A stretch of DNA of 64,000 nt from Betaproteobacteria bacterium (GTDB lineage Bacteria; Pseudomonadota; Gammaproteobacteria; Burkholderiales; WYBJ01): NCBI GenBank assembly GCA_009377585.1, contig WHTS01000012.1, positions 4,867 to 68,866 of the forward strand. The letters run 5' to 3'. Below the pieces are notes generated by a model, which saw nothing but the letters and a program-made list of their open reading frames with translations, searched no databases and was not told where the DNA came from. This document shows positions 13,289 to 50,046 of this stretch, in pieces; the first letter of the stretch is position 1, and every line of letters begins with the position of its first letter. The position numbers and the translations under genes are program-made.

Positions 13289-14218
13289 TCAAGGCTGCGA
13301 TTCAGCGTCATCGTCGCCCAAGAGCTTGCCCTGCTCGGGCCCGCGCTCATGGCGAATGACCTGCACGATGCTGTAGATGGCCTTGAGCTTGCCGAGCTCG
13401 ATCCACTGGCGGATCTGTAGCTTCACGTGCAGGATGTCGTTCTTACGGAAAGCCGCCTCGCCCGACTGCACGGCGTGCATGAAGGCTTCATCCTCGATCG
13501 CGACGTAAATCGTGCGGCTGCCATCGGAAACGCGCCACTTGTTCTCTTCCTCGAACGAAGGCGCGACGATGGTGACGCGCGTGTCGGTGACGGAGATCGT
13601 CTCGCCCTCGTGCTCGGTCGGGGCGACGAAGGCGGGGAAGTCGTCGCGCGTGACCTCGACGGTGTCTTTGCCCTTATGGCGGACCTTGAAGAGGTCGATG
13701 CCGCGGCTCTTGAGCGGCTCGACGATGCGCTCGACTGCTTTGCGGGCGCGCAGATTCTTGAACAGCTCCCACACGCGCCGGTCGACGCTGACGGGTTCGG
13801 CATCGCCTTCGAAGGTGATCTTCACCCGTTCGGTATGCTCGACGGTGACGGAGGTGGTTCTCCGACCGCGGCCATGCTTGATGAGCTGGAACAGGCCGAA
13901 CCCTGTGCCGAGGACACCGGAAATCCCGAGGATCTGGAAGAGGTTCGCCCAGGCGCTCGCCTCGCTGCTGCCGAAGAGACTGACGATCTGCTGATAGAAA
14001 GTGGCGAGCTCGAGGCTGACCTCGAAAGAACCCTGCTCGAAGCCGGCGCGCACGCGAAGCCGGATCTGCACCTCGGGCGGCAAGGCCAGGTCGTGGGCCT
14101 CGTCGAAGAGCTCGGCGAGCGCGAGCAGCGCCGGTGCCAGATCCTTCGCGTCAATCGCGCCTTCGGCGACATCCTCCCCGTCGTACACGATGCTGAAGCG
14201 TGCATCGTCTGCCGCCAT
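13289..14218 (-). CDS. Hypothetical protein, 309 aa, no recognisable domain (last gene of the XRE-ORF6N operon)
   Basis: Long ORF with good coding character, 27 nt downstream of the ORF6N gene. Acidic N-terminal region, one Gly-rich hydrophobic segment (ANLFQILGISGVLGTGFGLFQLI) followed by KHGRGRR, and a beta-rich charged C-terminal half. Confidence 0.7.
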   Translation of the reverse strand: MAADDARFSIVYDGEDVAEGAIDAKDLAPALLALAELFDEAHDLALPPEVQIRLRVRAGFEQGSFEVSLELATFYQQIVSLFGSSEASAWANLFQILGISGVLGTGFGLFQLIKHGRGRRTTSVTVEHTERVKITFEGDAEPVSVDRRVWELFKNLRARKAVERIVEPLKSRGIDLFKVRHKGKDTVEVTRDDFPAFVAPTEHEGETISVTDTRVTIVAPSFEEENKWRVSDGSRTIYVAIEDEAFMHAVQSGEAAFRKNDILHVKLQIRQWIELGKLKAIYSIVQVIRHERGPEQGKLLGDDDAESQP

Positions 14219-14245
14219 GGAACTCCTCCCCTTCTTCTTAGCTGC

Positions 14246-14800
14246 TTACTTCTCCTGCGGATGCACGAAGCCGATCGGCCGTCGCCTGGGTACGGGCTCG
14301 GGCGGGGCCATGAGCTTCTTGATCGCGTCGAGGATCTCGAAGATCGTCTCGTCCTGGGTGTCGATGCGCTGCTCAAGGGCGGTGAGCTTGCGAGCAAGGG
14401 CCTTGTGCGTGGCGAGGACCTCGCGCATCTGCACGAAGGCGCGCACGACGTAGACGCCCATCTCGATGGCGCGAGGGCTGTTGAGCACGTTGGCGGCCTG
14501 GATTGCGCCATGTTCGGTGAAGGCGAAGGGAGTGAAGCGCGGGTCGCGGTGCTTCTGGGAACCGGTCGCAATTTGCGACCGGTTCAGCGTATCGAGCTCG
14601 GCACGGGTGAGCCGGAACATGAAGTCCTCGGGGAAGCGCTCGATGTTGCGCTTCACCTGCTCGTTGAGCCGTCGAGTTTCAACGCCATAGAGTGACGCGA
14701 GGTCGGCATCGAGGATGACCTTGTGGGCGCGTACGAGAAGGATGCGGCTGGTGATGGCCTCGACGGCGATCGCGACCGATGCTCGCTTCGATCCCGCCAT
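14246..14800 (-). CDS. ORF6N (KilA-N-like) DNA-binding domain protein with C-terminal coiled coil
   Basis: ILLVRAHKVILDADLASLYGVETRRLNEQVKRNIERFPEDFMFRLT...FTEHGAIQAANVLNS is the ORF6N pattern seen in phage and mobile-element proteins. 5-nt gap to the upstream XRE gene. Confidence 0.85.
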   Translation of the reverse strand: MAGSKRASVAIAVEAITSRILLVRAHKVILDADLASLYGVETRRLNEQVKRNIERFPEDFMFRLTRAELDTLNRSQIATGSQKHRDPRFTPFAFTEHGAIQAANVLNSPRAIEMGVYVVRAFVQMREVLATHKALARKLTALEQRIDTQDETIFEILDAIKKLMAPPEPVPRRRPIGFVHPQEK

Positions 14801-14805
14801 GGGTC

Positions 14806-15198
14806 TCAGTGGCTCGTGCCTGCGAGCACGTCTTCGAGCATCTGAATGACGAGCGGCTGCTTGGCGCGGGGAAGCTGCGCGATGCGCTCCATCTGCTGCT
14901 GGAGCTTCGGTGCCGGCCCGCGTTTACCGGCCGCGCGCACGGGCTCGCCGAGGAGCTCTTCCACACCGACGTGGAGCGTGCGCGCCATTTGCACGACCAT
15001 CGACACTGGCGGGCGGGCGCGTCCCACCGCGTATTGGGGCAAGCGTTTGCTGGGCGATGCCGAGCTCGTCGGCGAGCGCCTGCTGCGACAGACCCTGGAC
15101 TTGCGTGCGGCGGCGAGCCGCGCGCCCAGGTCCTTGAAGAACTGCTGTTCCCCGGGGTTCATGGAAGGCGCTGCTGCAAGCTGCGAGGCGCTCAGCAT
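14806..15198 (-). pseudogene. XRE-family HTH regulator interrupted by two compensating 1-nt frameshifts
   Basis: Frame A gives MNPGEQQFFKDLGARLAAARKS... and ...QYAVGRARPPVSMVVQMARTLHVGVEELLGEP...KRGPAPKLQQQMERIAQLP. The HTH core QGLSQQALADELGIAQQTLA is encoded only in another frame, between the homopolymer sites 15097..15098 and 15036..15039. Confidence 0.7.
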
Positions 15199-18079: not shown

Positions 18080-18361
18080 ATCGTGGGCTTGGGGGATGAT
18101 CGTGTGAGGCTTTCGATGCTATCAACAGCACGAGCCTGTGTACATGTCGCTCCGACATCGTGCGTGCGGTTCGCGGCGCGCGATTGCTATACTTGGCGCA
18201 ATCCTTCCTGGATGGGGAACGCGACATCCGCGCGGGTATACGCGAGGTCAAGGCGGGGTCGATCGCCGACGGCGGCAAGAAGCGACAGTTCGCCTACTGG
18301 GAAGACATCATGCGCAAGGTCGCGCAAAGCGGTCCAACGCAGAAGTCAGCAGGAGACATCG

Positions 18362-18874
18362 ATGCCCGACACGGTAGCACCGCGCTATTCTCCGCTTGTT
18401 CCGCAGGACATGCTGGACGAGATTTTCTGGAAGGATGGACGTGAGCCGAAGGACGAGCGGCTGTGGGTGCCAAACGGCCCCGGCCGCTGGTCCAGGCCGC
18501 TGTGCCTGAACGTGAGCCAAGGGTATTGGGTGCACCTGGTGAAGATCACACAGGCGGGCGTCGTGTCGCGCCATCGCCATCCTGCGCCCGTCCACGGCTT
18601 CGTTCTCGAAGGTCGCTGGCGCTATCTCGAGCGCGATTGGATTGCAACGGCTGGAAGCTATTTGTTCGAACCGCCGGGTGATGTGCACACGCTGGTCGTC
18701 GACGAAGGCGACTCGATGATTACCCTTTTCCACAACACCGGTGCGCTGCTGTACTGCGACGAGGAGGGCCGAACCGTCGGCTCAACCGACGTGTTCGACA
18801 GGGTCGCCGCAGCGCGCAAGCACTTCGAATCGGTCGGCCTCGGCGCCGACTACGTGAAGCGCTTTATCCGCTAG
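18362..18874 (+). CDS. 2,4'-dihydroxyacetophenone dioxygenase-family cupin protein
   Basis: ATG 18362 after AGGAGA. 170 aa with WVHLVKI...SRHRHPAPVHGFVLEGRWRYLE...FEPPGDVHTL, characteristic of the DAD cupin family. The long upstream part of track ORF 16598..18874 is a shadow of the minus-strand gene. Confidence 0.8.
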   Translation: MPDTVAPRYSPLVPQDMLDEIFWKDGREPKDERLWVPNGPGRWSRPLCLNVSQGYWVHLVKITQAGVVSRHRHPAPVHGFVLEGRWRYLERDWIATAGSYLFEPPGDVHTLVVDEGDSMITLFHNTGALLYCDEEGRTVGSTDVFDRVAAARKHFESVGLGADYVKRFIR

Positions 18875-18882
18875 AAGGAAGC

Positions 18883-18909
18883 GAGCCCCGCGACTCGCGC
18901 CGCGGGGCT
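18883..18909. terminator. GC-rich hairpin between convergent genes (candidate bidirectional terminator)
   Basis: AGCCCCGCG-actcgcgc-CGCGGGGCT, 9-bp stem, located between the stops at 18874 (+) and 18915 (-). Confidence 0.5.
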
Positions 18910-18914
18910 GCCGC

Positions 18915-19454
18915 TCAGTTCTGCTCCTGCCCTTCGCGCAGCAGGTCGATCACCTGCGGTGCGATCTCCCGAGCGCGTTGATCGAGCTGCTCCGGAGTCA
19001 GGTTGGCAATCGGGTGCGGCATCATGACGAAACGGAAATCCGGCAAGCCCCAGGTGCGGGCCATCGCCTTTCCGGTCTTTTCAAAAACGTCCGTGATGAT
19101 GGACGCGGACGGTACGCCTTGCTGTTCGAATACGATACTGTCGAGCACACTGCCCGAGCTGCAGGACCCTCAATCGCCGACGCCGGCTATGACGATGTCG
19201 CAGCCGGCCTTGTACTCCTCGACGATTTCGGTGTGGGGCGCAGAGCCCGAGCTCTTCTTGCGCCGGATGAGATGGGTCTTGGCGCCATGCTCCTTTTCCA
19301 GGATGTCGGCGATGCGCAGCAGCAACTGATCGGAGTTGTGCTTGGTGTTGTCGATCAACCCGATGCGCAATCCGGCCAGGGATTCCGGCCGGGCCGCGTA
19401 GTTGATGCGCCGGTTGCTCACTTCGGTGGTGGGATCCAGAATCTGCACTGCCAT
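18915..19454 (-). CDS. UGSC-family selenoprotein; in-frame TGA at 19170..19172 read as selenocysteine
   Basis: ATG 19454 (MAVQILDPTT...). Track ORFs 19170..19874 and 18915..19148 share one frame and are separated only by one TGA. Read-through gives ...CDIVIAGVGD-U-GSCSSGSVLDSIVFEQQGVP..., the U-G-S-C signature. The 3' half has no RBS or ATG of its own. Confidence 0.8.
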
Positions 19455-19491
19455 ATCGGCTCCTTTCGTGTGAGTTGCCGGCCCCAAGGCT

Positions 19492-20526
19492 TTAGGGCCG
19501 GCGGATCTCCTTGCTGACGCTTTGTGAACCGTTCTTGCCGCCCCAACCCGGGATGTAGCACGACTGCACGCCGGCGCGGCCTCCGGCGGAAATGACCAGA
19601 AAGTCGGACGGCTCCTGCACCAGCGGCACCAGAGTGCGTTCGTCTTCGGCGGTGACGTCATCCGGCTTGACGTGTGCGCGCTTCTGCTCCGCCACCGAGG
19701 TCTGCGAATGCTCGAACGCGTATTGCTGCACTTGTTCGCGCGTCCAGCCGGACTTCTTGATGGTTGCGGAATGCTCGCCGGCGAACACCATTGCGTATTG
19801 CGGCTGGCGCGCCGTACCCGCCGACATGCGCATGTGCGCGCACATGGTTTCGAGTACGCCTTCGGCCGTGGCACTCAGCTGGTTGGAAATCTGGTGCGGT
19901 GCGAGCGCGGCGAAGACGGTGACTGCGTTCTGGTCGGCGCGAAATCCGCGCGTGGTATGAAAGGGCGGCCAGGGACTCTCCGCTTCGTTTTCGGCGATGC
20001 AATAGCTGTATTTGCCGCCGTGCCCCAGGCTGCTGCGGTCGAGCTCGCCCGGAAGCGTGCCGATGACGTTGCGCATGACCAGCCGCACCGCGCGGCCTAT
20101 GGTCGCGTTGGCGCGCCAGCCCGGTCCGAACAGGTTGTCGCCGCAATTGATGTCGAGCTCGCGCGCGATCGGGCCGTTCACGACCATGAATACGGCCGAG
20201 CCGCCGGTGCTGGTGGCGGGCCCGTGATAGCCGTAGAGCGGATCGGCGAGCGCTTCGATGGCGGCGGCAACCACCGGCATGTAATCCGCCTTGCACCCGG
20301 CCATGACCGCATTGATCGCAACCTTCTCGGCGGTCACCGACACCTGCCGGTTCTCGATGAATGCGAGCTGGTGATCGGGCGCCATGCCCGCGGCGTTGAG
20401 CATGGCTTCGACGCGATCGGGCGTGGGCGGTATCACGGGCAACCCGTCGGTCCAGCCGTTGGTGTAGCAAAGCTCGATCGCACCGGACAAATCGGGCGCC
20501 ATGTGGCGTCGCGATCTCAGTTCCAT
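19492..20526 (-). CDS. Conserved hypothetical protein, 344 aa, upstream partner of the UGSC selenoprotein
   Basis: ATG 20526 after AAAGGGG. Strong coding character (CYTNGWTDGLPVIPPT..., INAVMAGC, GPATSTGGSAVFMVVNGP, FGPGWRANATIGRAVRL). 37-nt gap to the UGSC gene. I could not assign a family. Confidence 0.75.
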   Translation of the reverse strand: MELRSRRHMAPDLSGAIELCYTNGWTDGLPVIPPTPDRVEAMLNAAGMAPDHQLAFIENRQVSVTAEKVAINAVMAGCKADYMPVVAAAIEALADPLYGYHGPATSTGGSAVFMVVNGPIARELDINCGDNLFGPGWRANATIGRAVRLVMRNVIGTLPGELDRSSLGHGGKYSYCIAENEAESPWPPFHTTRGFRADQNAVTVFAALAPHQISNQLSATAEGVLETMCAHMRMSAGTARQPQYAMVFAGEHSATIKKSGWTREQVQQYAFEHSQTSVAEQKRAHVKPDDVTAEDERTLVPLVQEPSDFLVISAGGRAGVQSCYIPGWGGKNGSQSVSKEIRRP

Positions 20527-22721: not shown

Positions 22722-22831
22722 GGGTCGTTGAGAGGTCGAGTCATACAGCTTCACCGGTGCGATCAGGTCGTAGTCGTACCTAGTCGTACCGTATCTTTTG
22801 CGAGCAAGTACGTTGACGCGAAGAGGAGCCC

Positions 22832-23212
22832 ATGAGCCAAAGCCCGATTCGAAGCTACACGGTGCAAGCGCGCTCGACCGACACGTTCGGGCGCGTGCTG
22901 TGCGCCGCGCGCAATCATCATTTCGTCGTCGACGGGCCGGTGCAGAATGGTTGCCCTGGCGAGGCGGTGAATCCGGGAGAGCTTTTTCTCGCCGGCGTCG
23001 CTGCCTGCGGCGTGGAGCTGGTGCAGGTGATCGCCAAGGAGCAGCAGCTCGCACCGAGCTCGATCGCGGTCGACATCGAAGGCACGATGGATCGAAGCCG
23101 GCCGGTGCGGCAGGACGTCACCGTCTTCAACGCCGTCACGCTACGCTTTCAGCTCTCCGGCGTGACGCAGCCGCAGGCGGTCGATCTCATCGAACGCTTC
23201 AAATCGAGGTGA
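22832..23212 (+). CDS. OsmC-family protein
   Basis: 126 aa. NPGELFLAGVAACGVEL... is the OsmC/Ohr-like pattern. GAGGAG RBS. Confidence 0.8.
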   Translation: MSQSPIRSYTVQARSTDTFGRVLCAARNHHFVVDGPVQNGCPGEAVNPGELFLAGVAACGVELVQVIAKEQQLAPSSIAVDIEGTMDRSRPVRQDVTVFNAVTLRFQLSGVTQPQAVDLIERFKSR

Positions 23213-23904: not shown

Positions 23905-25434
23905 TCAGGAATCGAGCAGAAACTCCAGCAGCTTGAGCCGCTGCACCTTGCCCGACGGACCCTTGGGCAATTCCTGCAGCAGGAGTATCGTCTTCGGCGT
24001 CTTGTAGCGGCCGAGCTCGCGCTCGCAGAACGCTTTCAGTTCCGTTGCGTCGCACGCTAGCCCGGATTTCAACACCACGGCCGCGGCGATCTCCTGACCG
24101 TACTGCGCGTCGGGAATGCCGACCGCGGCGGCTTCGAGCACGGCGGGGTGCGCGAGCAGCACCTCGTCGATCTCGCGCGGCGCGATGTTCTCGCCGCCCT
24201 TGATGATGAGCTCCTTGATGCGGCCGGTGACGAACACGAAGCCGTCGGCGTCCATGAAAGCCAGGTCGCCGCTGTGCATCCAGCCATCCGCGTGCAAGGT
24301 GCGCGCGGTGTTCTCCGGGTCCTTGTAATAACCCTTCATGACATTGTCGCCGCGCACCATGATTTCGCCCGCCTGTCCGGGTGGCAGCGGACCGCCGCTG
24401 GCCGGATCGACGATCTTCGCCTCGTTGCCGAAGGCGCGCCCCGGGCTTCCGATCTTGCGTTGCTCTGGCTGGTACGGATTGGTGAAACACGGCGCCGCGG
24501 TCTCGGTCATGCCGAAGGTCTCGATAATGCCGATGCCGAAGCGGCGCTCGAACGCGCGATGCTGCTCCGGGGGCAGCGGCGCCGAGGCCGAGCGGCAGAA
24601 TCGCACCTGGTCGATCGACAGTCCGCGCGCGCGCGGGTCGGCGCCGTTCAACAGGTAGGCGATGATGGTCGGGACGACGTTGATCCAGCTGCAGCGGTAG
24701 TCGGAGACCAGTCGCCAGTAGCTCGAAGCGCTGAAGCGGTGCGGCATGACGATCGAACCGCCGTGCACGAGGGGTGCTACCGCGGTCACGATCTGGCCGT
24801 TGATGTGGTAGAGCGGGAGCGCGCACAGCACGCGATCGGACTCGGTCAGGCGGTGCGCGCTGGAAGTGAACTCGCCGCCCGCGACGCAGTTCCGCTGGCT
24901 CAGCAGGCAACCTTTGGGCATTCCGGTCGTGCCCGAGGTGTACATCAGCAGCGCAGCATCGTCCTCGTCGATGTCGGGCAGCGCGCTCTCGGCTGGAAGT
25001 GCCGCGTCGAACAACTGCTCGGCATCGACGTCGGTGGGCACGACATGAATCGGCCGATCGATCGCGGCCAAGGCCTCGTCCAGGCGGCTACGGTACTCGT
25101 CGGCCACGAACACCGCGCATGTGTCCGCATGGGCCAACACGTATTCGAGCTGCGAGCGTTGCGACAGCAGGTTGATCGGCTGTACGACGAATCCGCCGTA
25201 CATGGCCCCGATCAGCAGTCGCGCCGCCTGGTAGCCGTTGTGCAGCATGAACGACACTTTGTCGCCCTTGCTCAAGCCCAGGCCGAGGAGATGGTGCGTG
25301 AGCGAGCGCGACTTGCGCTGCAGTCCGGCATACGTCAACGCAAGCCCGGTCTCGGGCGCAAGCAGATAGGGTCGATCGCCTTGGATCTCGGCGCGCCAGT
25401 CGACGTAGTGGCGGATCGTTCGTACGGCGCTCAT
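23905..25434 (-). CDS. AMP-dependent acyl-CoA synthetase/ligase
   Basis: ATG 25434. AMP-binding motifs LMYTSGTTGMPKG, FGMTE, GWMHSGDL, IKGGENI, PKGPSGKV. Confidence 0.9.
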   Translation of the reverse strand: MSAVRTIRHYVDWRAEIQGDRPYLLAPETGLALTYAGLQRKSRSLTHHLLGLGLSKGDKVSFMLHNGYQAARLLIGAMYGGFVVQPINLLSQRSQLEYVLAHADTCAVFVADEYRSRLDEALAAIDRPIHVVPTDVDAEQLFDAALPAESALPDIDEDDAALLMYTSGTTGMPKGCLLSQRNCVAGGEFTSSAHRLTESDRVLCALPLYHINGQIVTAVAPLVHGGSIVMPHRFSASSYWRLVSDYRCSWINVVPTIIAYLLNGADPRARGLSIDQVRFCRSASAPLPPEQHRAFERRFGIGIIETFGMTETAAPCFTNPYQPEQRKIGSPGRAFGNEAKIVDPASGGPLPPGQAGEIMVRGDNVMKGYYKDPENTARTLHADGWMHSGDLAFMDADGFVFVTGRIKELIIKGGENIAPREIDEVLLAHPAVLEAAAVGIPDAQYGQEIAAAVVLKSGLACDATELKAFCERELGRYKTPKTILLLQELPKGPSGKVQRLKLLEFLLDS

Positions 25435-25454
25435 GCGGCGCTCGCGGCTGCGAA

Positions 25455-26873
25455 TCAGAGGCCGTACTTGGCGCGGTAGCCGGCGAACACGTCCTCCGCG
25501 CTCGGCTCGTTCGGCGCGATCGGACGCACGATGCGCGTCGTATTCAGGAAATGCCGGTAGTTGAGATTCTCGGAGAAGCCGTTGCCGCCCCAGGTGCCGC
25601 AACCCATCGAGAGCGAGAACGGCAGCCCGTTGTCGAAGCTGCCGCCGTTGGCGATCGCATGCGCCTGATTGACGATGACGCGGCACACGGTCATCTCCAG
25701 GCCGAGCTTCATGACGTGCGCATCGTCGCTGGTGTGGATGCCCACCGAGTGGCCGTTGCCCTGGTAGTCGTAGATCGACTGCGCGAGCGCGAACGCATGC
25801 TCGAAGTCGCGCGCCCGATACACGGTGAGAACGGGGCAAAGTTTTTCGCCCGAGAACGGGTGCTCGCGTCCGGTGCCGCTCTCCTCGACCATGAGGAAGC
25901 TCGCGCGCGTCAGCTCGGACCGCGTGAGCCCGGCAAGCTCGCAAATCCTCGCTACCGATTGCGCCGTCGTTGCCGAGCCGAGCTTTCCATGCGGGAACAT
26001 CACCGCCTGCAGTCTTGCCTTTTCCTCGGCATTCAGAAGCGCGCCGCCCTGGCGTTCGAATTCATTCAGCATCACAGCATAAATCGGTGCGAGCAGCACG
26101 GCGGAATTCTCCGACGAGCAACTGGTTGCGTGATCGAAGACCTTCGAACGCGCGATCTTGGCCGCGGCCGCCGCGAGATCGGCGCTCTCGTCCACGATCA
26201 CCACCACGTTGCCCGCGCCCACGCCGAGCGCCGGCGTCCCGCTCGAATAGGCTGCGCGCACGTTGGCCTGTGAGCCGGTGACCACGACCAGGTCGGCCTG
26301 CTTCATCAGTTCTTCGCTCATCGCCTTCGAAACCGGCTGCGGCAGCATCTGCACCAGATCCTGCGGCGCACCCGTACGGCCGAGCTCGGCATGAACGAAT
26401 TCGAGCAGCTTGGCACTGGTGGAATGGCCCTTGGGTGACGGCGCCAGGATGACCGCGTTGGCGCCTTTCAATGCGTTGATGATGTTGTTGGCCGGGGTGG
26501 CACCCGGATTGGTCGAAGGCACGACCGCGGCGACGACGCCGACCGGGCGTGCGATCTCGACGATGCCCTTCTCGGGATATATGGCCACCACGCCGACCGA
26601 TTTTGCACCGCGCAGATCGCGCAGCAAGCCGAGGGTCTTGCGATGATTCTTGTCGAGCTTGTCCTGGACGCGCCCCAGCCCAGTGTCGCGTACGGCGAGC
26701 TCGGCCAGTATGCGATTGCGCTCCGGTGCCATGATCGCCCAGCCGGCGGCGAGCACCAGCTCGTCGATCCGGGACTGATCGTAGCTTGCCGCGATGCGCT
26801 GCGCCGCGCGTGCGCGCGCCACCAGGCGGGCAACGATGTCCTTCGCCGGGATCTCGGGCACTGCGGTATTCAT
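25455..26873 (-). CDS. Acylating (CoA-dependent) aldehyde dehydrogenase-family protein (EutE/PduP/SauS-like)
   Basis: ATG 26873. VVPSTNPGATP, catalytic-Cys region FDHATSCSSENS, and an overall length of 472 aa. Confidence 0.8.
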   Translation of the reverse strand: MNTAVPEIPAKDIVARLVARARAAQRIAASYDQSRIDELVLAAGWAIMAPERNRILAELAVRDTGLGRVQDKLDKNHRKTLGLLRDLRGAKSVGVVAIYPEKGIVEIARPVGVVAAVVPSTNPGATPANNIINALKGANAVILAPSPKGHSTSAKLLEFVHAELGRTGAPQDLVQMLPQPVSKAMSEELMKQADLVVVTGSQANVRAAYSSGTPALGVGAGNVVVIVDESADLAAAAAKIARSKVFDHATSCSSENSAVLLAPIYAVMLNEFERQGGALLNAEEKARLQAVMFPHGKLGSATTAQSVARICELAGLTRSELTRASFLMVEESGTGREHPFSGEKLCPVLTVYRARDFEHAFALAQSIYDYQGNGHSVGIHTSDDAHVMKLGLEMTVCRVIVNQAHAIANGGSFDNGLPFSLSMGCGTWGGNGFSENLNYRHFLNTTRIVRPIAPNEPSAEDVFAGYRAKYGL

Positions 26874-27042
26874 GGCTCTGCTCCTCTGCACCGGCGCACG
26901 CACGACGCTCGACTGCAATGATAGCAAGACGCCTCATGCCGCTTCGGACTTGCTTTTTGCGATGCAGAAACGATATTGCTACACTCGCCCGGTTTGCTCG
27001 GCTGTCGAGCAGGCGCTGCATTCATGGAGGCTCTATCGAGAA

Positions 27043-28461: not shown

Positions 28462-28655
28462 CCTCTCAGGCGGTGCCTCCTCGGCGCCGCCTTCTTGTCG
28501 CAATACGTCCACGCAGCGTCCGGTACGGTGCACAGCTTCTGCGCGATGCACTGCTGCAGTGCGGCGAAAGGTTTCCGTGGGTGCGTCGCGCGCTCGCCGA
28601 AACCGTTAAAAATCCTGTGATGCCAAGGCCCTAGCGACGCGCGTGCAACATGGCA

Positions 28656-28780
28656 CGTCGGTTGCTCAGCAGCAACCGACGCCGCTTGATCGAAGCGCGA
28701 CCGGTGGGCCGGTTGCGGTAAACGGGGACAACGGCGTCCATGTGTGCGGACCTATCGCCGCCATGGACGCCTTCATTTGC
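28656..28780 (+). promoter_or_regulatory. Structured leader of the nitrate-assimilation operon (candidate antitermination/attenuation region)
   Basis: Perfect 11-bp hairpin CGTCGGTTGCT-cagc-AGCAACCGACG (28656..28681). Second stem GGCGTCCATG...CATGGACGCC (28733..28771) is followed by TTCATTTGC just before the cobA ATG. Confidence 0.4.
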
Positions 28781-28781
28781 G

Positions 28782-29585
28782 ATGCGCGAAGCGATATCCA
28801 GCCAAGGCAAGGTGTACCTGATCGGAGCGGGGCCGGGCGCGGCCGACCTGCTCACGTTGCGCGCGGCCCGTGTGCTCGCGACGGCGGAAGTCGTGCTGGT
28901 CGACGCGCTGGTCGATCGCAGCGTGCTCGATCACTGCGCCGCGCAGGCACGCATCGTCCATGTTGGCAAGCGCGGCGGCTGCCGCAGCACCCCGCAGGCT
29001 TTCATCCAGCGGCTCATGGTGCGCTATGCCCGGCAGGGACGGATAGTGGCGCGTCTCAAGGGCGGCGATGCCTTCGTGTTCGGCCGCGGCGGCGAGGAAG
29101 CCGCCTTCCTGCGCCGCCATGGCATCGCAGTCGAGATCGTCCCGGGCCTGACCGCCGGCATCGCCGTGCCGGCCGCGCTCGGCATCCCGGTCACCCAGCG
29201 CGGAATCGCACACGGCGTCACCTTCGTCACCGGTCATGCCAGCGGCATTGCGGAGCCCGACTGGCGCGCACTGGCGCAAAGCCGCACCACACTCGTCATC
29301 TATATGGGCCTGCAGCGGCTGGCGGACATTGCGCGTGCCCTCATGGCAGGCGGTTTGAGCGGGGCAACGCCGGCTGCCGCGATTGCGCAGGGCACGCTGC
29401 CGGGCGAGCGCCACGTCATCGCGCCGCTGTCCGATATCGCGCGCGCGGTCGCGCAAGCAGCGCTCGCCGCGCCGGTCGTAATCGTCGTCGGCGAAGTCGT
29501 GTCACTCGCCGACGCGCGCATGGACGCTCCAGCGACGTTCGCGCGCCGCAGTGGAACACAGGCAAGGGAGGCAACGCAGGCATGA
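28782..29585 (+). CDS. cobA: Uroporphyrinogen-III C-methyltransferase (siroheme branch)
   Basis: ATG 28782. VYLIGAGPGAADLLTLRA, LKGGDAFVFGRGGEE, VPGLTAG. ATGA overlap with nirB. Confidence 0.88.
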   Translation: MREAISSQGKVYLIGAGPGAADLLTLRAARVLATAEVVLVDALVDRSVLDHCAAQARIVHVGKRGGCRSTPQAFIQRLMVRYARQGRIVARLKGGDAFVFGRGGEEAAFLRRHGIAVEIVPGLTAGIAVPAALGIPVTQRGIAHGVTFVTGHASGIAEPDWRALAQSRTTLVIYMGLQRLADIARALMAGGLSGATPAAAIAQGTLPGERHVIAPLSDIARAVAQAALAAPVVIVVGEVVSLADARMDAPATFARRSGTQAREATQA

Positions 29586-32077
29586 AACGCGCAAACCTGG
29601 TGATGGTCGGCAACGGCATGGCGGGCTGCCGCACGCTCGAGGAGCTGTTGAAGATCGCGCCCGACTTGTATGCCATCACGGTGTTCGGCTCGGAGCCGCA
29701 TCCGAACTACAACCGCATCCTGCTCTCGCCGGTGCTCGCCGGGGAGATGACGGTGCAGGACATCATCCTGAACGATCTCGATTGGTACCGCGACAACGGC
29801 ATTACCCTGCACGCCGGCAAGCGGATCGCGCGCATCGACCGCATCGCCCGCAAGGTGATCGCCGAGGACGGCACACAGGCCGAGTACGACCGGCTGTTGC
29901 TGGCAAGCGGCTCCGACCCGTTCATTCTCCCGGTGCCGGGAAAGGATCTGCCCGGGGTCATCAGCTATCGCGACATCGCCGATACCGAAGCGATGATCGA
30001 GGCGGCCGGCCGTCACAAGCAGGCCGTCGTCATCGGCGCCGGATTGCTCGGGCTGGAGGCGGCCAACGGCCTGGCGCTGCGCGGTATGGATGTGACCGTC
30101 GTGCATCTCATGCCGTGGATCATGGAGCGGCAGCTCGATCGCGTCGCCGCCGGCATGCTGCAACGCTCGCTGGAGTCGAAGGGCCTGCGCTTTTTGCTCG
30201 AGAGGCAGACCAGCGCAATCGTGGCCAATGCCGCCGGTCGGGTCGGTGCGGTTCAGTTCGCCGACGGCGGCTCGATCGCGGCCGACCTGGTGGTGATGGC
30301 GGCTGGTATCCGCCCGAACGCCGAGCTCGCCCGGGCGGCGGGTTTGCACTGCAACCGCGGCGTGGTGGTGAGCGACACGATGCAGACCTTCGATCCGCGC
30401 ATCTACGCCGTGGGGGAATGCGCCGAGCACCGCGGCACTGCCTACGGACTGGTGGCGCCGCTGTTCGAGCAGGCGAAAGTCTGCGCCACGCATCTCGCCT
30501 ACTTCGGCATCGGCCGTTACTCGGGCTCGTTCGTATCCACCAAGCTCAAGGTCACCGGCATCGACGTGTTCTCCGCGGGCGATTTCACGGGCGGCGAGGG
30601 CATCGACGAGATCACGCTCAACGATCCGTCCGGCGGCGTGTACAAGAAGCTGATGCTGAAGGACGACCGCATCATCGGCGGCGTTCTGTACGGCGATACC
30701 GTGGACAGCTCCTGGTATCTGCAGCTCATGCGCGACCGGCAGAACGTGCACGAGATCCGCGACCACCTCATGTTCGGCCAGACCAACCTGGGTGATGCCG
30801 GCCACCAGGGCGAGAGCCGCGCCGCAGCCATGCCCGATCACGAGCAGATCTGCGGCTGCAACGGCGTGTGCAAGGGCACCATTGTCAAGGCGATCAAGGA
30901 AAAGGGCCTGTTCACGCTCGAGGACGTGCGCAAGCACACCAAGGCATCCAGCTCCTGCGGATCGTGCACGGGCCTGGTCGAGCAGTTGCTCGCCTCGACC
31001 ATCGGCGGCGCCTACCAGCCCGCGGAGGGCAAGGACAAGGCGGTGTGCGGCTGCACCGATCTGTCGCACGGCGCGCTGCGACGTGCGATCCGCGAGAACA
31101 AGTGGCTCGACATTCCGACCGTCACGCGCGCGCTGGAGTGGCGCACGCCGAACGGCTGCGCCACCTGCCGCCCGGCGCTCAACTATTACCTGATCGCCAC
31201 CTGGCCGCACGAGGCGCGCGACGATCCGCAAAGCCGCTTCATCAACGAGCGCGCGCACGCCAACATCCAGAAGGACGGCACGTTCTCGGTGGTGCCGCGC
31301 ATGTGGGGCGGCGTCACCACGCCGCAGGAGCTGCGCGCGATCGCCGACGTGGCCGAGAAGTATGCCGTGCCGACGGTCAAGGTCACCGGCGGCCAGCGCA
31401 TCGACCTCCTGGGCGTGCGCAAGGCGGACTTGCCGAAGGTCTGGGCGGAGCTCGGTCAGGCCGGGCTCGTATCGGGTCATGCCTACGGCAAGTCGCTGCG
31501 CACGGTCAAGACCTGCGTCGGCGCCGAGCATTGCCGCTTCGGCACCCAGTCGTCGATGAGCATGGGGGCCGAGATCGAGCGCATGCTCTTCGGCATGTGG
31601 GCGCCCCACAAGGTGAAGCTCGCGGTCTCCGGCTGCCCGCGCAACTGCGCCGAGTCGGGCATCAAGGATGTCGGCGTCATCGGGCTCGAAGGTGCCTGGG
31701 AGATCTACGTCGCGGGCAACGGCGGCATCAAGACCGAGGTGGCGCAGTTCCTGTGCAAGGTCGCCACGCGCGAGGAAGTGCTCGAACACACGGCGGCCTT
31801 CCTGCAGCTCTACCGCGAAGAAGGCTACTACCTCGAGCGCACGGTGCACTTCGTTGCGCGCGTGGGGCTGGAGTACGTCAAGAAACAGGTCGTGGCCGAT
31901 GCCGCCAACCGGGCTGCGCTGGCGCAGCGACTGCAGTTCGCGCTCCAGAACCATGTCGATCCGTGGGCGCAGCGCGCCGGCAACGAGCGCTCCGACGACA
32001 GGCCGGCGACGCTGCGCCGGGAATTCGAGCCGCTTGCGCTTGGGTCCGAACGGCGCGAGGAGACGGCCCGTGGCTGA
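29582..32077 (+). CDS. nirB: NAD(P)H-dependent assimilatory nitrite reductase, large subunit
   Basis: ATG 29582, 831 aa. FAD/NAD folds (VMVGNGMAG, AVVIGAGLLGLE), BFD-like CGCNGVCKG, and a siroheme/4Fe-4S region (KTCVGAEHCRFG, VSGCPRNCAE). Confidence 0.93.
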   Translation: MKRANLVMVGNGMAGCRTLEELLKIAPDLYAITVFGSEPHPNYNRILLSPVLAGEMTVQDIILNDLDWYRDNGITLHAGKRIARIDRIARKVIAEDGTQAEYDRLLLASGSDPFILPVPGKDLPGVISYRDIADTEAMIEAAGRHKQAVVIGAGLLGLEAANGLALRGMDVTVVHLMPWIMERQLDRVAAGMLQRSLESKGLRFLLERQTSAIVANAAGRVGAVQFADGGSIAADLVVMAAGIRPNAELARAAGLHCNRGVVVSDTMQTFDPRIYAVGECAEHRGTAYGLVAPLFEQAKVCATHLAYFGIGRYSGSFVSTKLKVTGIDVFSAGDFTGGEGIDEITLNDPSGGVYKKLMLKDDRIIGGVLYGDTVDSSWYLQLMRDRQNVHEIRDHLMFGQTNLGDAGHQGESRAAAMPDHEQICGCNGVCKGTIVKAIKEKGLFTLEDVRKHTKASSSCGSCTGLVEQLLASTIGGAYQPAEGKDKAVCGCTDLSHGALRRAIRENKWLDIPTVTRALEWRTPNGCATCRPALNYYLIATWPHEARDDPQSRFINERAHANIQKDGTFSVVPRMWGGVTTPQELRAIADVAEKYAVPTVKVTGGQRIDLLGVRKADLPKVWAELGQAGLVSGHAYGKSLRTVKTCVGAEHCRFGTQSSMSMGAEIERMLFGMWAPHKVKLAVSGCPRNCAESGIKDVGVIGLEGAWEIYVAGNGGIKTEVAQFLCKVATREEVLEHTAAFLQLYREEGYYLERTVHFVARVGLEYVKKQVVADAANRAALAQRLQFALQNHVDPWAQRAGNERSDDRPATLRREFEPLALGSERREETARG

Positions 32078-32378
32078 ATGGATACGCATCTGCACGCTGG
32101 ACGAGATTCCGGTGCTCGGTGCGCGTGTCGTGCGCGATCCGTTCGGCGATATCTGCGTGTTCCGCAACGCGAACGACGAAGTGTTCGCCCTTAACGACCG
32201 GTGCCCGCACAAGGGCGGCCCGCTGTCGCAAGGCATCGTGCACGGGCGCAGCGTGACCTGCCCGCTGCACGGCTGGAGGATCGACCTGGCCAGCGGCGAC
32301 GCGGTCGCGCCGGACCAGGGTTGCACGCATTCGTATTCCGTCAAGGTGGAGAACGGCGATGTGCTGCTTGCGTTGTGA
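32070..32378 (+). CDS. nirD: Nitrite reductase small subunit (Rieske-like)
   Basis: GTG 32070 after GGAGA. WIRICTLDEIPVLGARVV...DRCPHKGGPLSQG...CPLHGW. 8-nt overlap with nirB. Confidence 0.85.
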   Translation: MAEWIRICTLDEIPVLGARVVRDPFGDICVFRNANDEVFALNDRCPHKGGPLSQGIVHGRSVTCPLHGWRIDLASGDAVAPDQGCTHSYSVKVENGDVLLAL

Positions 32379-32459
32379 TTTGGCGCGCGGCGTGCGTGCG
32401 TGCGCGTCCGCTTGCCTTGGATGCGAACGGCGTGTGAATGGCGCACGGGGGAAACGCGC

Positions 32460-33674
32460 ATGAACCGCGAGTCGTTCCTGCGGGCCGGACATCTGCCCAC
32501 GCTGATCGCCGCATTCCTCTACTTCGACCTCGCGTTCATGGTCTGGGTGATGCTGGGCCCGCTCGGCGTCCAGATCGCCGCAGAGCTGCACTTGAGCCAT
32601 GCGCAAAAGGGCTTGATGGTCGCCACACCCGTGCTCGCCGGTGCGTTGCTGCGCATCGTCATGGGCCTCATGGTCGATCACTTCAAGCCCAAGCTCGCCG
32701 GCGCGATCGGCCAGGCGATCGTGCTGGTCGCGCTTCTGTGGGCGTGGCATTTCGGCGTGCAAAGCTACCACGGCGTGCTGCTGCTCGGCGTATTCCTCGG
32801 GGTCGCCGGCGCTTCTTTCGCCGCGGCGCTGCCGCTTGCTTCGCGCTGGTATCGCGCCGAGCACCAGGGAACGGCGCTCGGCATTGCGGGCGCCGGCAAC
32901 TCCGGCACGGTGCTGGCGGCGCTGTTCGCTCCCGCGCTCGCGGCGGCATTCGGCTGGCGCAACGTGTTCGGCCTGGCCGCGATCCCGCTGGCGCTCGTGT
33001 TCGTGCTCTATCTCGTGCTCGCGCGCGACGCGCCAGACTGTCCGCCGGCCAAGCGGCTCCCCGAATATTTCCGCGTGTTGAAGGAAATCGACGCCTGGTG
33101 GTTCATGTTTCTGTACTCGATCACGTTCGGCGGCTTCGTCGGCCTCGCCTCCTCGCTCACCATCTACTTCAATTCGCAATACGGTCTGGATGCGACCACG
33201 GCCGGCTTCTTTACCGCCGCGTGCGTGTTCGCGGGCTCGCTGGTGCGACCGATCGGCGGGATGGTCGCCGACGGGATAGGCGGCGTGCGCACCTTGTCGG
33301 TGATGTACGTGCTGGCCGCGGCGGCGCTCGCGCTGGTGAGCATCGGGCTGGCGCATGCCTGGGCCGCGCTGGCGGTGTTCGTGATCGCGATGCTGGCACT
33401 GGGCATGGGCAACGGCGCGATCTTCCAACTGGTGCCACAGCGCTTTCGCCAGGAGATCGGCGTCATGACCGGCATGGTCGGCATGGCGGGCGGCGTCGGC
33501 GGCTTCTACCTCGCCTCCTCCCTCGGCTACTCCAGGCAGTTCACCGGCAGCTATCAGGCGGGGTTGGTGACGTTCGCTGCCCTGGCTGTGCTGGCCTTGC
33601 TCGCATTGAGTGGGGTCAAGCAGCGCTGGCGCACGACCTGGGGGGCGCCGCATCTCAGCGCGGCCAGGATCTGA
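32460..33674 (+). CDS. narK: MFS nitrate/nitrite transporter (NarK/NasA-type)
   Basis: ATG 32460. A 12-TMS protein with NNP-family motifs (GLMVATPVLAGALLRIVMG, GIAGAGNSGT). Confidence 0.88.
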   Translation: MNRESFLRAGHLPTLIAAFLYFDLAFMVWVMLGPLGVQIAAELHLSHAQKGLMVATPVLAGALLRIVMGLMVDHFKPKLAGAIGQAIVLVALLWAWHFGVQSYHGVLLLGVFLGVAGASFAAALPLASRWYRAEHQGTALGIAGAGNSGTVLAALFAPALAAAFGWRNVFGLAAIPLALVFVLYLVLARDAPDCPPAKRLPEYFRVLKEIDAWWFMFLYSITFGGFVGLASSLTIYFNSQYGLDATTAGFFTAACVFAGSLVRPIGGMVADGIGGVRTLSVMYVLAAAALALVSIGLAHAWAALAVFVIAMLALGMGNGAIFQLVPQRFRQEIGVMTGMVGMAGGVGGFYLASSLGYSRQFTGSYQAGLVTFAALAVLALLALSGVKQRWRTTWGAPHLSAARI

Positions 33675-33684
33675 TCGGCTGGCG

Positions 33685-47714: not shown

Positions 47715-47775
47715 GCGTGTTGCCTCCTTGTGGGCATCGCGGCCGCGAAGCGCGCTCGTCGGCGATGCGCCGCAA

Positions 47776-48234
47776 TCAGCCCGACGCCTGTTCCTTGACA
47801 CTCACCTGGGTCGAAACCGAGTTGGCGATGAAGCAGCCGTGATGCGCTTCGTCGTGCATCCGCCGCAGCATCTCGGCATCGGGCTGGCGCTCGCCGGCAA
47901 ATACGATGCGCGGGCTGAGCTCCGCGCGCGTGATAGCGAGCTTGCTTTGCGCATTCTTCTCCAGATATCCGACCGCGGCGTCCTCGTAGCGATCCACCAC
48001 GAAGCCGTGCTTGGCGGCGACGGCCAGGAAGGTGAGCATGTGGCAGCTCGACAGCGCGGCGACGAATGCATCCTCCGGATCGGGCAGATCGGGGTTGCCC
48101 TTGTACTGCGGCGAGGCCGAAGCGCCGACCGTCACTGCACTCTTGAAGCGCCATTCGTGATCGCGGTTGTAGCTGGCGTAGGTGAAGTCGGCAGACGTTC
48201 GCTGCCAGATCGTCTGTATGCGGTGCTCGGACAT
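47776..48234 (-). CDS. OsmC-family peroxiredoxin-like protein
   Basis: 152 aa. PEDAFVAALSSCHMLTFL and HHGCFIANS are the two OsmC Cys motifs. Confidence 0.82.
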   Translation of the reverse strand: MSEHRIQTIWQRTSADFTYASYNRDHEWRFKSAVTVGASASPQYKGNPDLPDPEDAFVAALSSCHMLTFLAVAAKHGFVVDRYEDAAVGYLEKNAQSKLAITRAELSPRIVFAGERQPDAEMLRRMHDEAHHGCFIANSVSTQVSVKEQASG

Positions 48235-48253
48235 TGCCCTGCTCCGGAAGAAT

Positions 48254-49831: not shown

Positions 49832-50046
49832 GTGAACCACCGGCCGAAGGAGAGTGCTTCGATGATACACCCGGGGGTCGGGCCGGCGGAACGCGCGGGC
49901 GCGGATGCTAGACTGGCCGCAGCCGGCAGCCGCCAAGTCCCTGACCTGATTGGACGCCGCTGCCGTATGCCGCGCGCTCGAGGCTTTGCACCACGCGCTT
50001 TGCACCACCCAAATTGCGCGCCGATTTCTCCGAAAGGACGAAGGCC

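What the first reader, a model, noticed from the sequence alone, without database searches (positions are those of the whole stretch)
18915..19454. In-frame TGA encodes selenocysteine in a UGSC-family protein; ORF callers split the gene in two
The minus-strand ORFs 19170..19874 and 18915..19148 share one frame and are separated by a single TGA (19170..19172). The real start is ATG 19454. Read-through yields a 179-aa protein with ...IVEEYKAGCDIVIAGVGD-U-GSCSSGSVLDSIVFEQQGVPSASIITDVF..., where Sec is codon 95. U-G-S-C is the defining motif of the NCBIfam-described but functionally uncharacterised UGSC (seleno)protein family. The 3' half has neither an RBS nor an ATG of its own. A GC hairpin (CUGC-AGCUCGG-GCAG) starts 6 nt after the UGA, where bacterial SECIS elements sit. 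A U/C-x-x-C arrangement suggests a redox function.
Basis: partly seen in the sequence, partly recalled or inferred. Interest (0 to 1): 0.75.

Follow-up and report, generated by a model that had tools for sequence, protein, structure and literature searches.

The report
UGSC selenoprotein gene with conserved partner
This is a genuine selenocysteine-encoding gene of the already catalogued but functionally unknown UGSC family, and it always sits beside (or is fused to) a large unannotated protein family that it probably serves as a redox helper.

Summary
Window 19454..18915 (minus strand) is one 179-codon gene with a single in-frame TGA at codon 95, which reads as U-G-S-C. It scores above the curated cut-offs of NCBIfam NF041046 and Pfam PF24696.

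All 81 relatives read (80 Burkholderiales/Betaproteobacteria MAG loci, 68-94% identical, plus one metagenome contig) keep TGA at this codon, while more distant homologs have Cys there. Synonymous sites are frozen for about 10 codons after the UGA.

The conserved element is UCGGGCA-GUG-UGCUCGA (19157..19141). It is 100% paired, has a compensatory C:G to G:C swap, and meets all four published bacterial SECIS criteria.

The family has been known since about 2005-2008, so this is a new member of a known kind. Two results go beyond the finding:
- The confident model of a Cys homolog is flavodoxin-like, not thioredoxin-like as the literature proposed.
- The upstream 344-aa gene (20526..19492) has no Pfam, NCBIfam or PDB match. 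It is adjacent in every locus with upstream DNA, is paired with UGSC across phyla, and is fused to UGSC in 34 of 150 representative clusters. In other members a Redoxin/AhpC-TSA domain or a ferredoxin:thioredoxin-reductase beta domain takes UGSC's place.

I infer that UGSC is a selenol/thiol relay for this unknown enzyme. No Sec machinery lies in the window.

The parts
18915..19454 (-). UGSC-family selenoprotein gene: 179 codons plus a stop, and that terminal stop is itself TGA (18917..18915)
   Evidence: Translation. NF041046 scores 151.4 bits against a cut-off of 125. PF24696 scores 201.3 bits over residues 4-173. 81 orthologous loci align end to end.
19170..19172 (-). Sec codon UGA (codon 95), the first residue of the U-G-S-C motif
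   Evidence: TGA in 81 of 81 related loci. Cys at the aligned position in about 95 more distant homologs.
19141..19157 (-). SECIS core hairpin UCGGGCA-GUG-UGCUCGA: a 7-bp upper stem with a 3-nt apical loop that starts with GU, 19 nt after the UGA
   Evidence: All 7 pairs are 100% paired in 64 distinct sequences. C21:G27 changes to G:C in 8 sequences and to U:G in L090. The hairpin alone folds at -7.5 kcal/mol, z -3.1.
19135..19164 (-). Extended SECIS with a lower stem (alignment columns 9-12 paired with 35-38). This is weaker in the window itself, where it has a C-U mismatch and a G-U pair.
   Evidence: RNAalifold consensus. Folds of -9.3 to -12.2 kcal/mol, and -17.8 kcal/mol in the variant L015.
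19140..19169 (-). Codons 96-105, where synonymous sites are frozen by the overlapping RNA structure
   Evidence: Mean synonymous-codon entropy is 0.29 bits for codons 95-105, against a gene-wide mean of 0.98. This is the global minimum.
19460..19466 (-). Ribosome-binding site AAAGGAG, 5 nt before ATG 19454
   Evidence: Read directly from the sequence.
18881..18898 (-). Terminator-like G+C-rich hairpin directly after the gene
   Evidence: Consensus scan. This is a pattern match only.
19492..20526 (-). Conserved 344-aa partner gene with no family assignment. It lies 37 nt upstream of the UGSC gene on the same strand.
   Evidence: No Pfam, NCBIfam or PDB sequence match. It is present immediately upstream in all 76 loci that have upstream DNA. 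It is paired with Cys-form UGSC in Paraburkholderia, Microbacter and Pseudonocardia. UGSC fusions occur in 34 of 150 representative clusters.

Best explanation
Shown: window 19454..18915 (minus strand) is a single gene for a 179-residue member of the UGSC (seleno)protein family. UGA at codon 95 is recoded to selenocysteine by a SECIS hairpin inside the coding sequence (UCGGGCA-GUG-UGCUCGA, 19 nt after the UGA). The same gene ends at an ordinary UGA stop, so reading of UGA here depends on context.

Inferred from a confident model of a homolog: the protein has a flavodoxin-like alternating beta/alpha fold. Sec sits immediately after strand 3 at the N-terminus of helix 3. The family's invariant residues cluster in the loops after strands 1, 3 and 5 (N36, K38; G91, G93, D94, U95, G96, C98, S99; H147, P148).

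Inferred from gene linkage and domain fusions: Sec95 and Cys98 form a selenol/thiol pair that cycles with a selenenylsulfide. This pair works as a dedicated redox relay for the product of the upstream gene (20526..19492). That product is a 344-residue enzyme of an unannotated family with near-invariant Cys78 (in the motif AVMAGC) and Cys176. UGSC would reduce, or resolve an adduct on, that cysteine at each turnover.

Not identified: the partner's substrate and the upstream electron donor.
For: Family membership.

Sec rather than stop:
- Cys at the aligned position in about 95 homologs.
- TGA in 81 of 81 relatives with the downstream frame conserved.
- TGA also kept in two much more divergent lineages, L086 and L090.

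SECIS:
- The synonymous-site freeze is confined to codons 95-105.
- The 7-bp stem is 100% paired, with a C:G to G:C compensatory change in 8 sequences and U:G in L090.
- L086 has a hairpin of the same geometry from a different sequence: 7 bp, loop UGUAU, 18 nt from the UGA, z -4.4.
- All four criteria of the published bacterial SECIS model are met: loop of 3-9 nt with a stem of 4-16 bp, G in the first two loop positions, spacing of 16-37 nt, and MFE of -7.5 kcal/mol or lower (PMC13188914).

Fold: model with pLDDT 91 and pTM 0.87, five beta-alpha units. The best PDB matches are flavodoxin-like proteins.

Partner link:
- Adjacent and co-directional in 76 of 76 loci with upstream DNA.
- Adjacent, with the genes overlapping by 4 nt, in Cys-form loci of Proteobacteria and Actinobacteria in either gene order.
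- Adjacent in L086 at 35% identity.
- 34 of 150 representative partner clusters carry a fused UGSC module in either order, many cut exactly at the Sec codon.
- Redoxin/AhpC-TSA CxxC domains (P0364, P0385) or a ferredoxin:thioredoxin reductase beta domain (P0305) occupy the same position in other members.
- Conserved cysteines in the partner.
Against: - No selA, selB, selD or tRNA-Sec in the window or tRNA-Sec in 60 related loci. This is uninformative for a 64-kb piece, but it leaves the machinery unverified.
- Folding the window sequence alone over 40-66 nt is no more stable than shuffles. The SECIS argument rests on conservation and covariation.
- There is only one covarying pair, and its 8 sequences may descend from a single event.
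- The fold was modelled on a 57%-identical Cys homolog, because the window protein could not be submitted. Structural matches are weak (TM 0.36-0.46).
- The redox-relay role is inference only. The partner model is poor (pLDDT 67) and matches nothing, so no catalytic chemistry can be named.
- Some partner homologs (L087, L089) have no adjacent UGSC.
- No consistent reductase gene accompanies the pair.
Confidence: 0.9

Rival explanations
1. The TGA is a true stop. On this reading the locus is a pseudogene, a sequencing error, or two separate short genes, so only a 94-residue N-terminal product (plus perhaps an independent C-terminal fragment) is made.
For: Gene callers treat it this way in public data. 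The window contains no Sec machinery. The window sequence folded alone is not exceptional.
Against: TGA is at the identical codon in 81 of 81 relatives that are 68-94% identical, with the downstream 84 codons conserved in frame and under amino-acid constraint. Both family HMMs align across the stop. Cys occupies the position in other lineages. The 3' half has no ATG or RBS, and its only candidate start, a GTG, lies inside the conserved hairpin.
Confidence: 0.02
2. The UGA is read through, but by something other than Sec-tRNA: near-cognate Trp or Cys insertion, or a reassigned UGA. The protein would then be full length without selenium.
For: The Sec machinery could not be checked. One public gene call translates the orthologous TGA as W (P0001).
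Against: UGA is also the gene's own terminator (18917..18915), so it is not reassigned. A structured element that meets the SelB-type SECIS model is conserved exactly where required. The W in P0001 is a translation-table artefact, since the DNA has TGA. The family is a recognised selenoprotein family with 255 Sec forms against 21 Cys forms in the GOS data (PMC2398784).
Confidence: 0.04
3. Sec is inserted, but UGSC is not a redox relay for the neighbouring gene. Instead it would be a free-standing oxidoreductase or a metal- or selenium-binding protein, and the linkage would reflect assembly, chaperoning or regulation.
For: The partner's chemistry is unknown, with no fold or family match. C/U-x-x-C motifs also bind metals (PMC1088965). 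A flavodoxin-like fold is unusual for a thiol-disulfide oxidoreductase. Some partner homologs lack an adjacent UGSC.
Against: The domains that replace UGSC in front of the partner are all thiol-disulfide redox modules: Redoxin/AhpC-TSA with CxxC, and FeThRed_B. That argues for exchange of reducing equivalents rather than metal delivery. The partner keeps near-invariant cysteines.
Confidence: 0.3

Closest known systems
UGSC-containing (seleno)protein family (NCBIfam NF041046, Pfam PF24696; reference protein ABI76733.1 of Hyphomonas neptunium; Zhang & Gladyshev 2008, PMC2398784)
   Same: Full-length match above the curated cut-offs. U-G-S-C motif at the aligned position. Sec and Cys forms alternate between lineages. 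It is abundant in non-marine aquatic and soil Betaproteobacteria. It is linked to the domain the 2008 paper called 'Unknown_1', which is very probably the partner family described here.
   Different: Nothing essential: it is an ordinary member. The model here indicates a flavodoxin-like fold rather than the 'Trx-like fold' suggested in 2008. I could not verify that Unknown_1 is the same as the partner family, because the supplementary figure is an image.
Thioredoxin-fold UxxC/CxxC redoxins (Trx, Grx, Prx-like and DsbA-like selenoproteins)
   Same: A U/C-x-x-C motif at the N-terminus of a helix directly after a beta strand. A presumed selenol/thiol-selenenylsulfide cycle. Trx-fold Redoxin domains occupy the same position as UGSC in fusions with the partner family.
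   Different: A different fold: five alternating beta-alpha units, with flavodoxin-like structural neighbours and no Trx-fold protein among the 50 PDB matches listed. No sequence match to any Trx-clan Pfam family, even at E up to 10.
Glycine reductase / D-proline reductase selenoprotein B systems (GrdB/PrdB, PF07355, with GrdE/PrdA partner subunits)
   Same: A UxxC selenoprotein that works with a separately encoded, tightly linked catalytic partner in a reductive reaction. Both are often found in catabolic gene clusters.
   Different: No detectable sequence relation between UGSC and PF07355, or between the partner and the Grd/Prd families, even at E up to 10. No grdA, trxB or trx genes in the conserved unit. 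The resemblance is an analogy in organisation only.
E. coli fdhF-type bacterial SECIS / bSECIS consensus model (Zhang & Gladyshev 2005, as summarised in PMC13188914)
   Same: A stem-loop in the coding sequence just 3' of the UGA. A small apical loop beginning with GU. 19 nt between the UGA and the loop. A 7-bp upper stem. MFE of -7.5 kcal/mol or lower.
   Different: The sequence is unrelated to fdhF. No Rfam family matched at gathering threshold. Whether the upper stem has a bulged U was not assessed. SelB binding is untested.

Membership tests
UGSC family (seleno)protein (NF041046 / PF24696) | Whole-protein score above the curated cut-off of the family models | tested here: met
   NF041046 scores 151.4 bits against 125. 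PF24696 scores 201.3 bits against 25, covering profile positions 1-171 of 172.
UGSC family (seleno)protein (NF041046 / PF24696) | U/C-G-S-C motif at the conserved position after ...G-x-G-D | tested here: met
   The window reads GVGD-U-GSC. Homologs read GVGD-C-G(S/A)C. G91, G93, D94, G96, C98 and S99 are invariant.
Bacterial selenoprotein (Sec decoded at UGA) | In-frame UGA aligned with Cys in homologs and conserved among orthologs | tested here: met
   (81 of 81), plus 87 and 92.
Bacterial selenoprotein (Sec decoded at UGA) | SECIS stem-loop downstream of the UGA meeting the bSECIS model (loop 3-9 nt, stem 4-16 bp, G in the first two loop positions, 16-37 nt spacing, MFE of -7.5 kcal/mol or lower) | tested here: met
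   Loop GUG, stem of 7 bp, spacing 19 nt, -7.5 kcal/mol for the core and -9.3 to -11.4 kcal/mol extended. The criteria come from PMC13188914. Covariation and a synonymous-site freeze support it.
Bacterial selenoprotein (Sec decoded at UGA) | selA, selB, selC (tRNA-Sec) and selD present in the genome | not testable with these tools
   Only a 64-kb window is available. It holds no tRNA gene, and none of 20 large ORFs matches a sel family. No tRNA-Sec was found in 60 related loci. Absence from the window says nothing about the genome.
Bacterial selenoprotein (Sec decoded at UGA) | Selenium demonstrably incorporated (75Se labelling or mass spectrometry) | not testable with these tools
   This needs an experiment.
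Thioredoxin-fold oxidoreductases | Thioredoxin fold (a mixed sheet with the beta-alpha-beta ... beta-beta-alpha arrangement) | tested here: not met
   The AF2 model of homolog P0005 (pLDDT 91) has five alternating beta-alpha units. Foldseek neighbours are flavodoxin, WrbA, FMN reductase, the FtsZ N-domain and lumazine synthase, and no Trx-fold entry is among the 50 matches listed.
GrdB/PrdB selenoprotein B (PF07355) | Sequence match to the family model | tested here: not met
   hmmscan at E up to 10 returns only PF24696 for UGSC and nothing relevant for the partner.

The most novel reading that the evidence does not exclude
UGSC and the unannotated 344-residue partner together form a widespread two-component (sometimes fused) selenoenzyme of a kind not yet described. 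The partner would be a catalytic family with no detectable relative of known structure or function, spanning more than 5,000 clusters at 50% identity. Its active-site cysteine would be recycled by interchangeable redox modules: a flavodoxin-fold U/CxxC module (UGSC), a Trx-fold Redoxin, or an FTR-beta domain. UGSC would then be the first thiol/selenol-disulfide oxidoreductase built on a flavodoxin-like scaffold.
Probability: 0.45. Interest if true: 0.55.

Novelty: new member of a known kind. Interest (0 to 1): 0.3.

Why it matters
As a selenoprotein call it matters mainly for annotation. This gene and at least 81 orthologs in public MAGs are routinely split or truncated by gene callers, and the correct SECIS is now defined for this clade.

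The wider value is a concrete, testable lead on a family that has been listed as 'function unknown' for almost twenty years, even though it is among the most abundant selenoproteins in freshwater and soil metagenomes. That lead has three parts:
- UGSC has an obligate partner gene.
- The partner belongs to a very large dark protein family.
- The pattern of domain swaps says the two exchange reducing equivalents.

Co-expressing the pair, using the Cys form from Paraburkholderia or Microbacter to avoid needing Sec insertion, is now an obvious experiment.

Tried and rejected
It is 73% paired, its outer pair is unpaired in 61 of 64 sequences, it is broken by the same C21G change that is compensated in the rival hairpin, and its loop lies only 9 nt from the UGA.
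- Rfam scan of the window at gathering threshold: no hit.
- Single-sequence folding of 40-66 nt after the UGA: not distinguishable from shuffles. Thermodynamics alone would not have found the SECIS.
A 57%-identical Cys homolog was modelled instead.
- Partner protein: no Pfam or NCBIfam hit even at E up to 10. No PDB hit by sequence or by profile. The AF2 model is only pLDDT 67, and Foldseek gives nothing meaningful (best E 0.037, TM at most 0.22). Its fold therefore remains undetermined rather than shown to be new.
- Relation to the Grd/Prd reductases: considered and not supported.
- Search for a conserved third gene, such as a dedicated reductase: the recurrent neighbours (TctC, SDR, methyltransferase, DUF3301, ABC-F, dUTPase, GST, cupin) look like clade synteny or generally abundant families. 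Pyr_redox_2/FMO-like flavoproteins and Amidohydro_2 recur in the distant loci L083-L087, but not consistently.
- tRNA-Sec and sel genes: none in the window or in 60 loci.
- Identity of the partner with 'Unknown_1' of the 2008 paper: could not be checked, because the supplementary figure is stored as an image.

Full report
**1. What is in the sequence**

On the minus strand, 19454..18915 is one reading frame of 180 codons. It has a single internal stop, TGA at 19172..19170 (codon 95), which reads ...DIVIAGVGD-*-GSCSSGSVLDSIVFEQQGVPSASIITDVF....

ATG 19454 is preceded by AAAGGAG (19466..19460) and aligns with the N-termini of homologs. The second mechanical ORF begins at a GTG with no Shine-Dalgarno sequence in front. 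The gene's own terminator is also TGA (18917..18915), and a G+C-rich terminator-like hairpin follows it (18898..18881). UGA therefore has two meanings within 260 nt of the same mRNA.

**2. Family**

With Cys substituted for the stop, the protein scores 151.4 bits on NCBIfam NF041046 'UGSC family (seleno)protein' (curated cut-off 125). It scores 201.3 bits on Pfam PF24696 (cut-off 25). Both alignments run straight across the TGA.

A search of 5.8 billion proteins found 116 relatives. About 95 are full length, with C-G-(S/A)-C at the aligned position. A set of fragments either ends at '...AGVGD' or starts just after the motif. That is what gene callers produce when they split a Sec gene.

**3. 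Is the UGA really conserved?**

A scan of one genome per species (GTDB) returned 80 loci, all from Burkholderiales or Betaproteobacteria MAGs, 68-94% identical over residues 1-176. In all 80, plus one metagenome contig, the codon is TGA and the downstream frame is intact: 81 of 81.

Two much more divergent lineages also have TGA there. L086 reads 'GIAA-U-GSC'. L090 is 59% identical, and a gene caller had translated its TGA as W. Sequencing error, a pseudogene, and two independent genes are all excluded.

**4. SECIS**

In a gapless codon alignment of 81 orthologs, mean synonymous-codon entropy is 0.98 bits across the gene. It falls to 0.29 bits for codons 95-105, which is the global minimum. 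Codons 100, 102, 104 and 105 use a single codon in all 81 sequences. This is an RNA-level constraint laid over the protein constraint.

The conserved structure is UCGGGCA-GUG-UGCUCGA (window 19157..19141; alignment columns 16-22 paired with 26-32, counting the U of UGA as column 1).
- All seven pairs are formed in all 64 distinct sequences.
- C21:G27 becomes G:C in 8 sequences, through synonymous changes GGC to GGG and GTG to GTC that always occur together.
- The same pair becomes U:G in L090.
- Shifted-register controls give 24-56% pairing against 99.8% for the proposed structure.
- RNAalifold adds a lower stem, columns 9-12 with 35-38.
- In sequences where Ser99 switches from AGC to UCG, the helix lengthens (L015: -17.8 kcal/mol, z -2.6).
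- L086 has a hairpin of the same geometry made from an unrelated sequence: GUCUUGG-UGUAU-CCGAGAC, 18 nt after the UGA, -8.6 kcal/mol, with 0 of 200 shuffles folding as well.

The published bacterial SECIS model requires a loop of 3-9 nt with an upper stem of 4-16 bp, a G in the first two loop positions, 16-37 nt between the UGA and the loop, and an MFE of -7.5 kcal/mol or lower (PMC13188914). The window element has a GUG loop, a 7-bp stem and 19-nt spacing. Its core folds at -7.5 kcal/mol and its extended form at -9.3 to -11.4 kcal/mol. All four criteria are met.

Its outer pair is absent in 61 of 64 sequences, the C21G change breaks it, and its loop begins 9 nt after the UGA.

Two caveats apply. 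There is only one covarying pair, and it may reflect a single event. Longer single-sequence folds are no better than shuffles.

**5. Sec machinery**

ARAGORN finds no tRNA gene in the window. Rfam finds nothing at gathering threshold. None of 20 large ORFs matches the SelA, SelB or SelD families. No tRNA-Sec lies in 60 related loci. Because sel genes are normally unlinked to selenoprotein genes, this neither supports nor refutes the Sec reading. It remains the one defining feature I could not test.

**6. What is already known**

The 'UGSC-containing protein' is an established selenoprotein family.
- In the GOS survey it had 255 Sec forms against 21 Cys forms. [quoted passage not shown]
- Reviews from 2022 and 2026 still list it without a function, the latter under NF041046.

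The finding is therefore a correct identification of a new member of a known kind.

**7. Fold**

The window protein could not be submitted for modelling. I modelled P0005 instead, a CGSC homolog 57% identical to it, with a 56-sequence alignment. The model has pLDDT 91.1 and pTM 0.87 and consists of five alternating beta-alpha units.

Foldseek against the PDB gives only weak matches (TM 0.36-0.46, best E 5e-4). All are flavodoxin-like or Rossmann-like proteins: the FMN reductase MsuE, WrbA, flavodoxins, the flavodiiron flavodoxin domain, the FtsZ N-domain and lumazine synthase. No thioredoxin-fold protein appears among the 50 matches listed. The 2008 suggestion of a Trx-like fold is not supported.

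The Sec-equivalent residue lies directly after strand 3 at the N-terminus of helix 3. The invariant residues fall in the loops after strands 1, 3 and 5, which form the ligand-binding edge in flavodoxin-like folds. This placement is inferred from the secondary-structure layout; I did not measure distances.

**8. The partner gene**

The gene 37 nt upstream (20526..19492, 344 aa) has no Pfam or NCBIfam match even at E up to 10. It has no relative in the PDB by sequence or by profile. All its named homologs are 'hypothetical protein'. The family is nevertheless very large: 5,189 clusters at 50% identity with E of 0.001 or better.

Its link to UGSC rests on the following.
- It lies upstream on the same strand in all 76 related loci that retain upstream DNA, 17-310 nt away in nearly all of them. 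The five loci without it have at most about 170 nt of upstream sequence. By contrast, the window's other neighbours recur in at most 6 loci.
- Cys-form UGSC genes are paired with it too: Paraburkholderia (55% identical, upstream), Microbacter and Pseudonocardia (37% identical, downstream), with the genes overlapping by 4 nt.
- A partner only 35% identical, in L086, follows a Sec-form UGSC gene.
- Among the 150 best representative clusters, 34 carry a fused UGSC module. These are full UGSC-partner fusions with a C-G-x-C motif (P0267, P0320), 22 proteins that begin with only the post-Sec half of UGSC, and partner-UGSC fusions that end at '...GD', one residue before the Sec codon. The last two groups are what Sec-containing fusions look like after truncation by gene callers.
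- In other members the same N-terminal position holds a Redoxin/AhpC-TSA domain with CPTC or CATC (P0364, P0385), a ferredoxin:thioredoxin reductase catalytic beta-chain domain (P0305), or an unassigned domain with CADC (P0241).

Across 57 diverse members the invariant positions are D27, P30, G77, P84, G118, G144 and R145. C78 (in AVMAGC), C176, R138, N140 and E179 are at least 90% conserved.

Three limits should be stated. The AF2 model of the partner is poor (pLDDT 67), and its Foldseek matches are meaningless. Some partner homologs, including tandem duplications of about 710 aa, have no adjacent UGSC. No third gene is consistently linked, although Pyr_redox_2/FMO-like flavoproteins, Amidohydro_2, SDR and CoA-ligase genes recur around the distant pairs.

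**9. Mechanism**

Shown: a Sec-encoding UGA with its SECIS, family membership, and strict genetic coupling to the partner.

Inferred: Sec95 and Cys98 cycle between the selenol/thiol state and a selenenylsulfide. In doing so they pass reducing equivalents to, or resolve an adduct on, a conserved cysteine of the partner enzyme. The inference rests on one pattern: every domain found in UGSC's place is a thiol-disulfide redox module. The partner's substrate and the upstream reductant are unknown.

I put confidence at about 0.9 for the selenoprotein reading and about 0.55-0.6 for the relay role.

**10. Verdict**

The family is already known, so interest is modest. The added value is the corrected fold class and a well-supported functional partner that makes this long-uncharacterised family experimentally approachable.

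Noticed in passing
window 28610-36396 (+): An assimilatory nitrate/nitrite cluster. It comprises a NirB-type nitrite reductase large subunit (TIGR02374, 929 bits), a NarK-family transporter (32379-33674), and a NasA/Fdh-alpha-type molybdopterin oxidoreductase (33610-36396). The last is a Cys-type or non-Sec enzyme, with no in-frame TGA noted.
   Followed up: partly
window 45978-51654: Two adjacent gamma-glutamyltransferase paralogs on the minus strand (45978-47801 and 48254-50185), next to a divergently oriented GsiB-like glutathione/peptide ABC substrate-binding protein (49945-51654).
   Followed up: no
window 23905-26933 (-): An acylating sulfoacetaldehyde dehydrogenase SauS (NF047625, 739 bits against a cut-off of 600) beside an AMP-binding (acyl-CoA ligase-type) enzyme. 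This suggests a sulfoacetate or taurine-related catabolic module.
   Followed up: no
window 13289-14923 (-): An ORF6N-domain protein (14246-14923) followed by a 318-aa ORF with no Pfam match (13289-14245). This may be a mobile-element or defence-related pair.
   Followed up: no
P0305, P0364, P0385, P0241 (partner-family representatives): The partner domain is fused to a ferredoxin:thioredoxin reductase beta chain, to Redoxin/AhpC-TSA CxxC domains, or to an unassigned CADC domain instead of UGSC. Seven representatives (such as P0237, about 710 aa) are tandem duplications of the partner domain.
   Followed up: partly
L086:3362-3907 (+): A divergent Sec-form UGSC reading 'GIAA-U-GSCTSW', which lacks the otherwise invariant G-D before Sec. 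Its SECIS has the same geometry as the window's but an unrelated sequence. It is flanked by two FMO-like/Pyr_redox flavoprotein genes, an SDR and a CoA ligase.
   Followed up: partly
L090:398-400 (P0001): A public gene call translates the orthologous Sec TGA as tryptophan, which is a genetic-code-4 artefact. This shows a second way, besides splitting, in which these genes are mis-annotated.
   Followed up: yes
L033:11354-12829 (-) and 25 other loci: An ORF family of about 199 aa with no Pfam match recurs on the opposite strand about 2.3 kb downstream of UGSC in 26 loci. It may be a real conserved gene or a spurious antisense ORF in high-GC DNA.
   Followed up: no
window 18360-18874 (+) and 22817-23212 (+): A ChrR-type cupin (Cupin_7) converges on the 3' end of the UGSC gene, and an OsmC-like peroxiredoxin-type gene lies about 3.4 kb upstream of the UGSC start. 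Both are stress or redox-related, but neither is conserved next to the pair in other loci (found in 0 and 1 loci respectively).
   Followed up: partly
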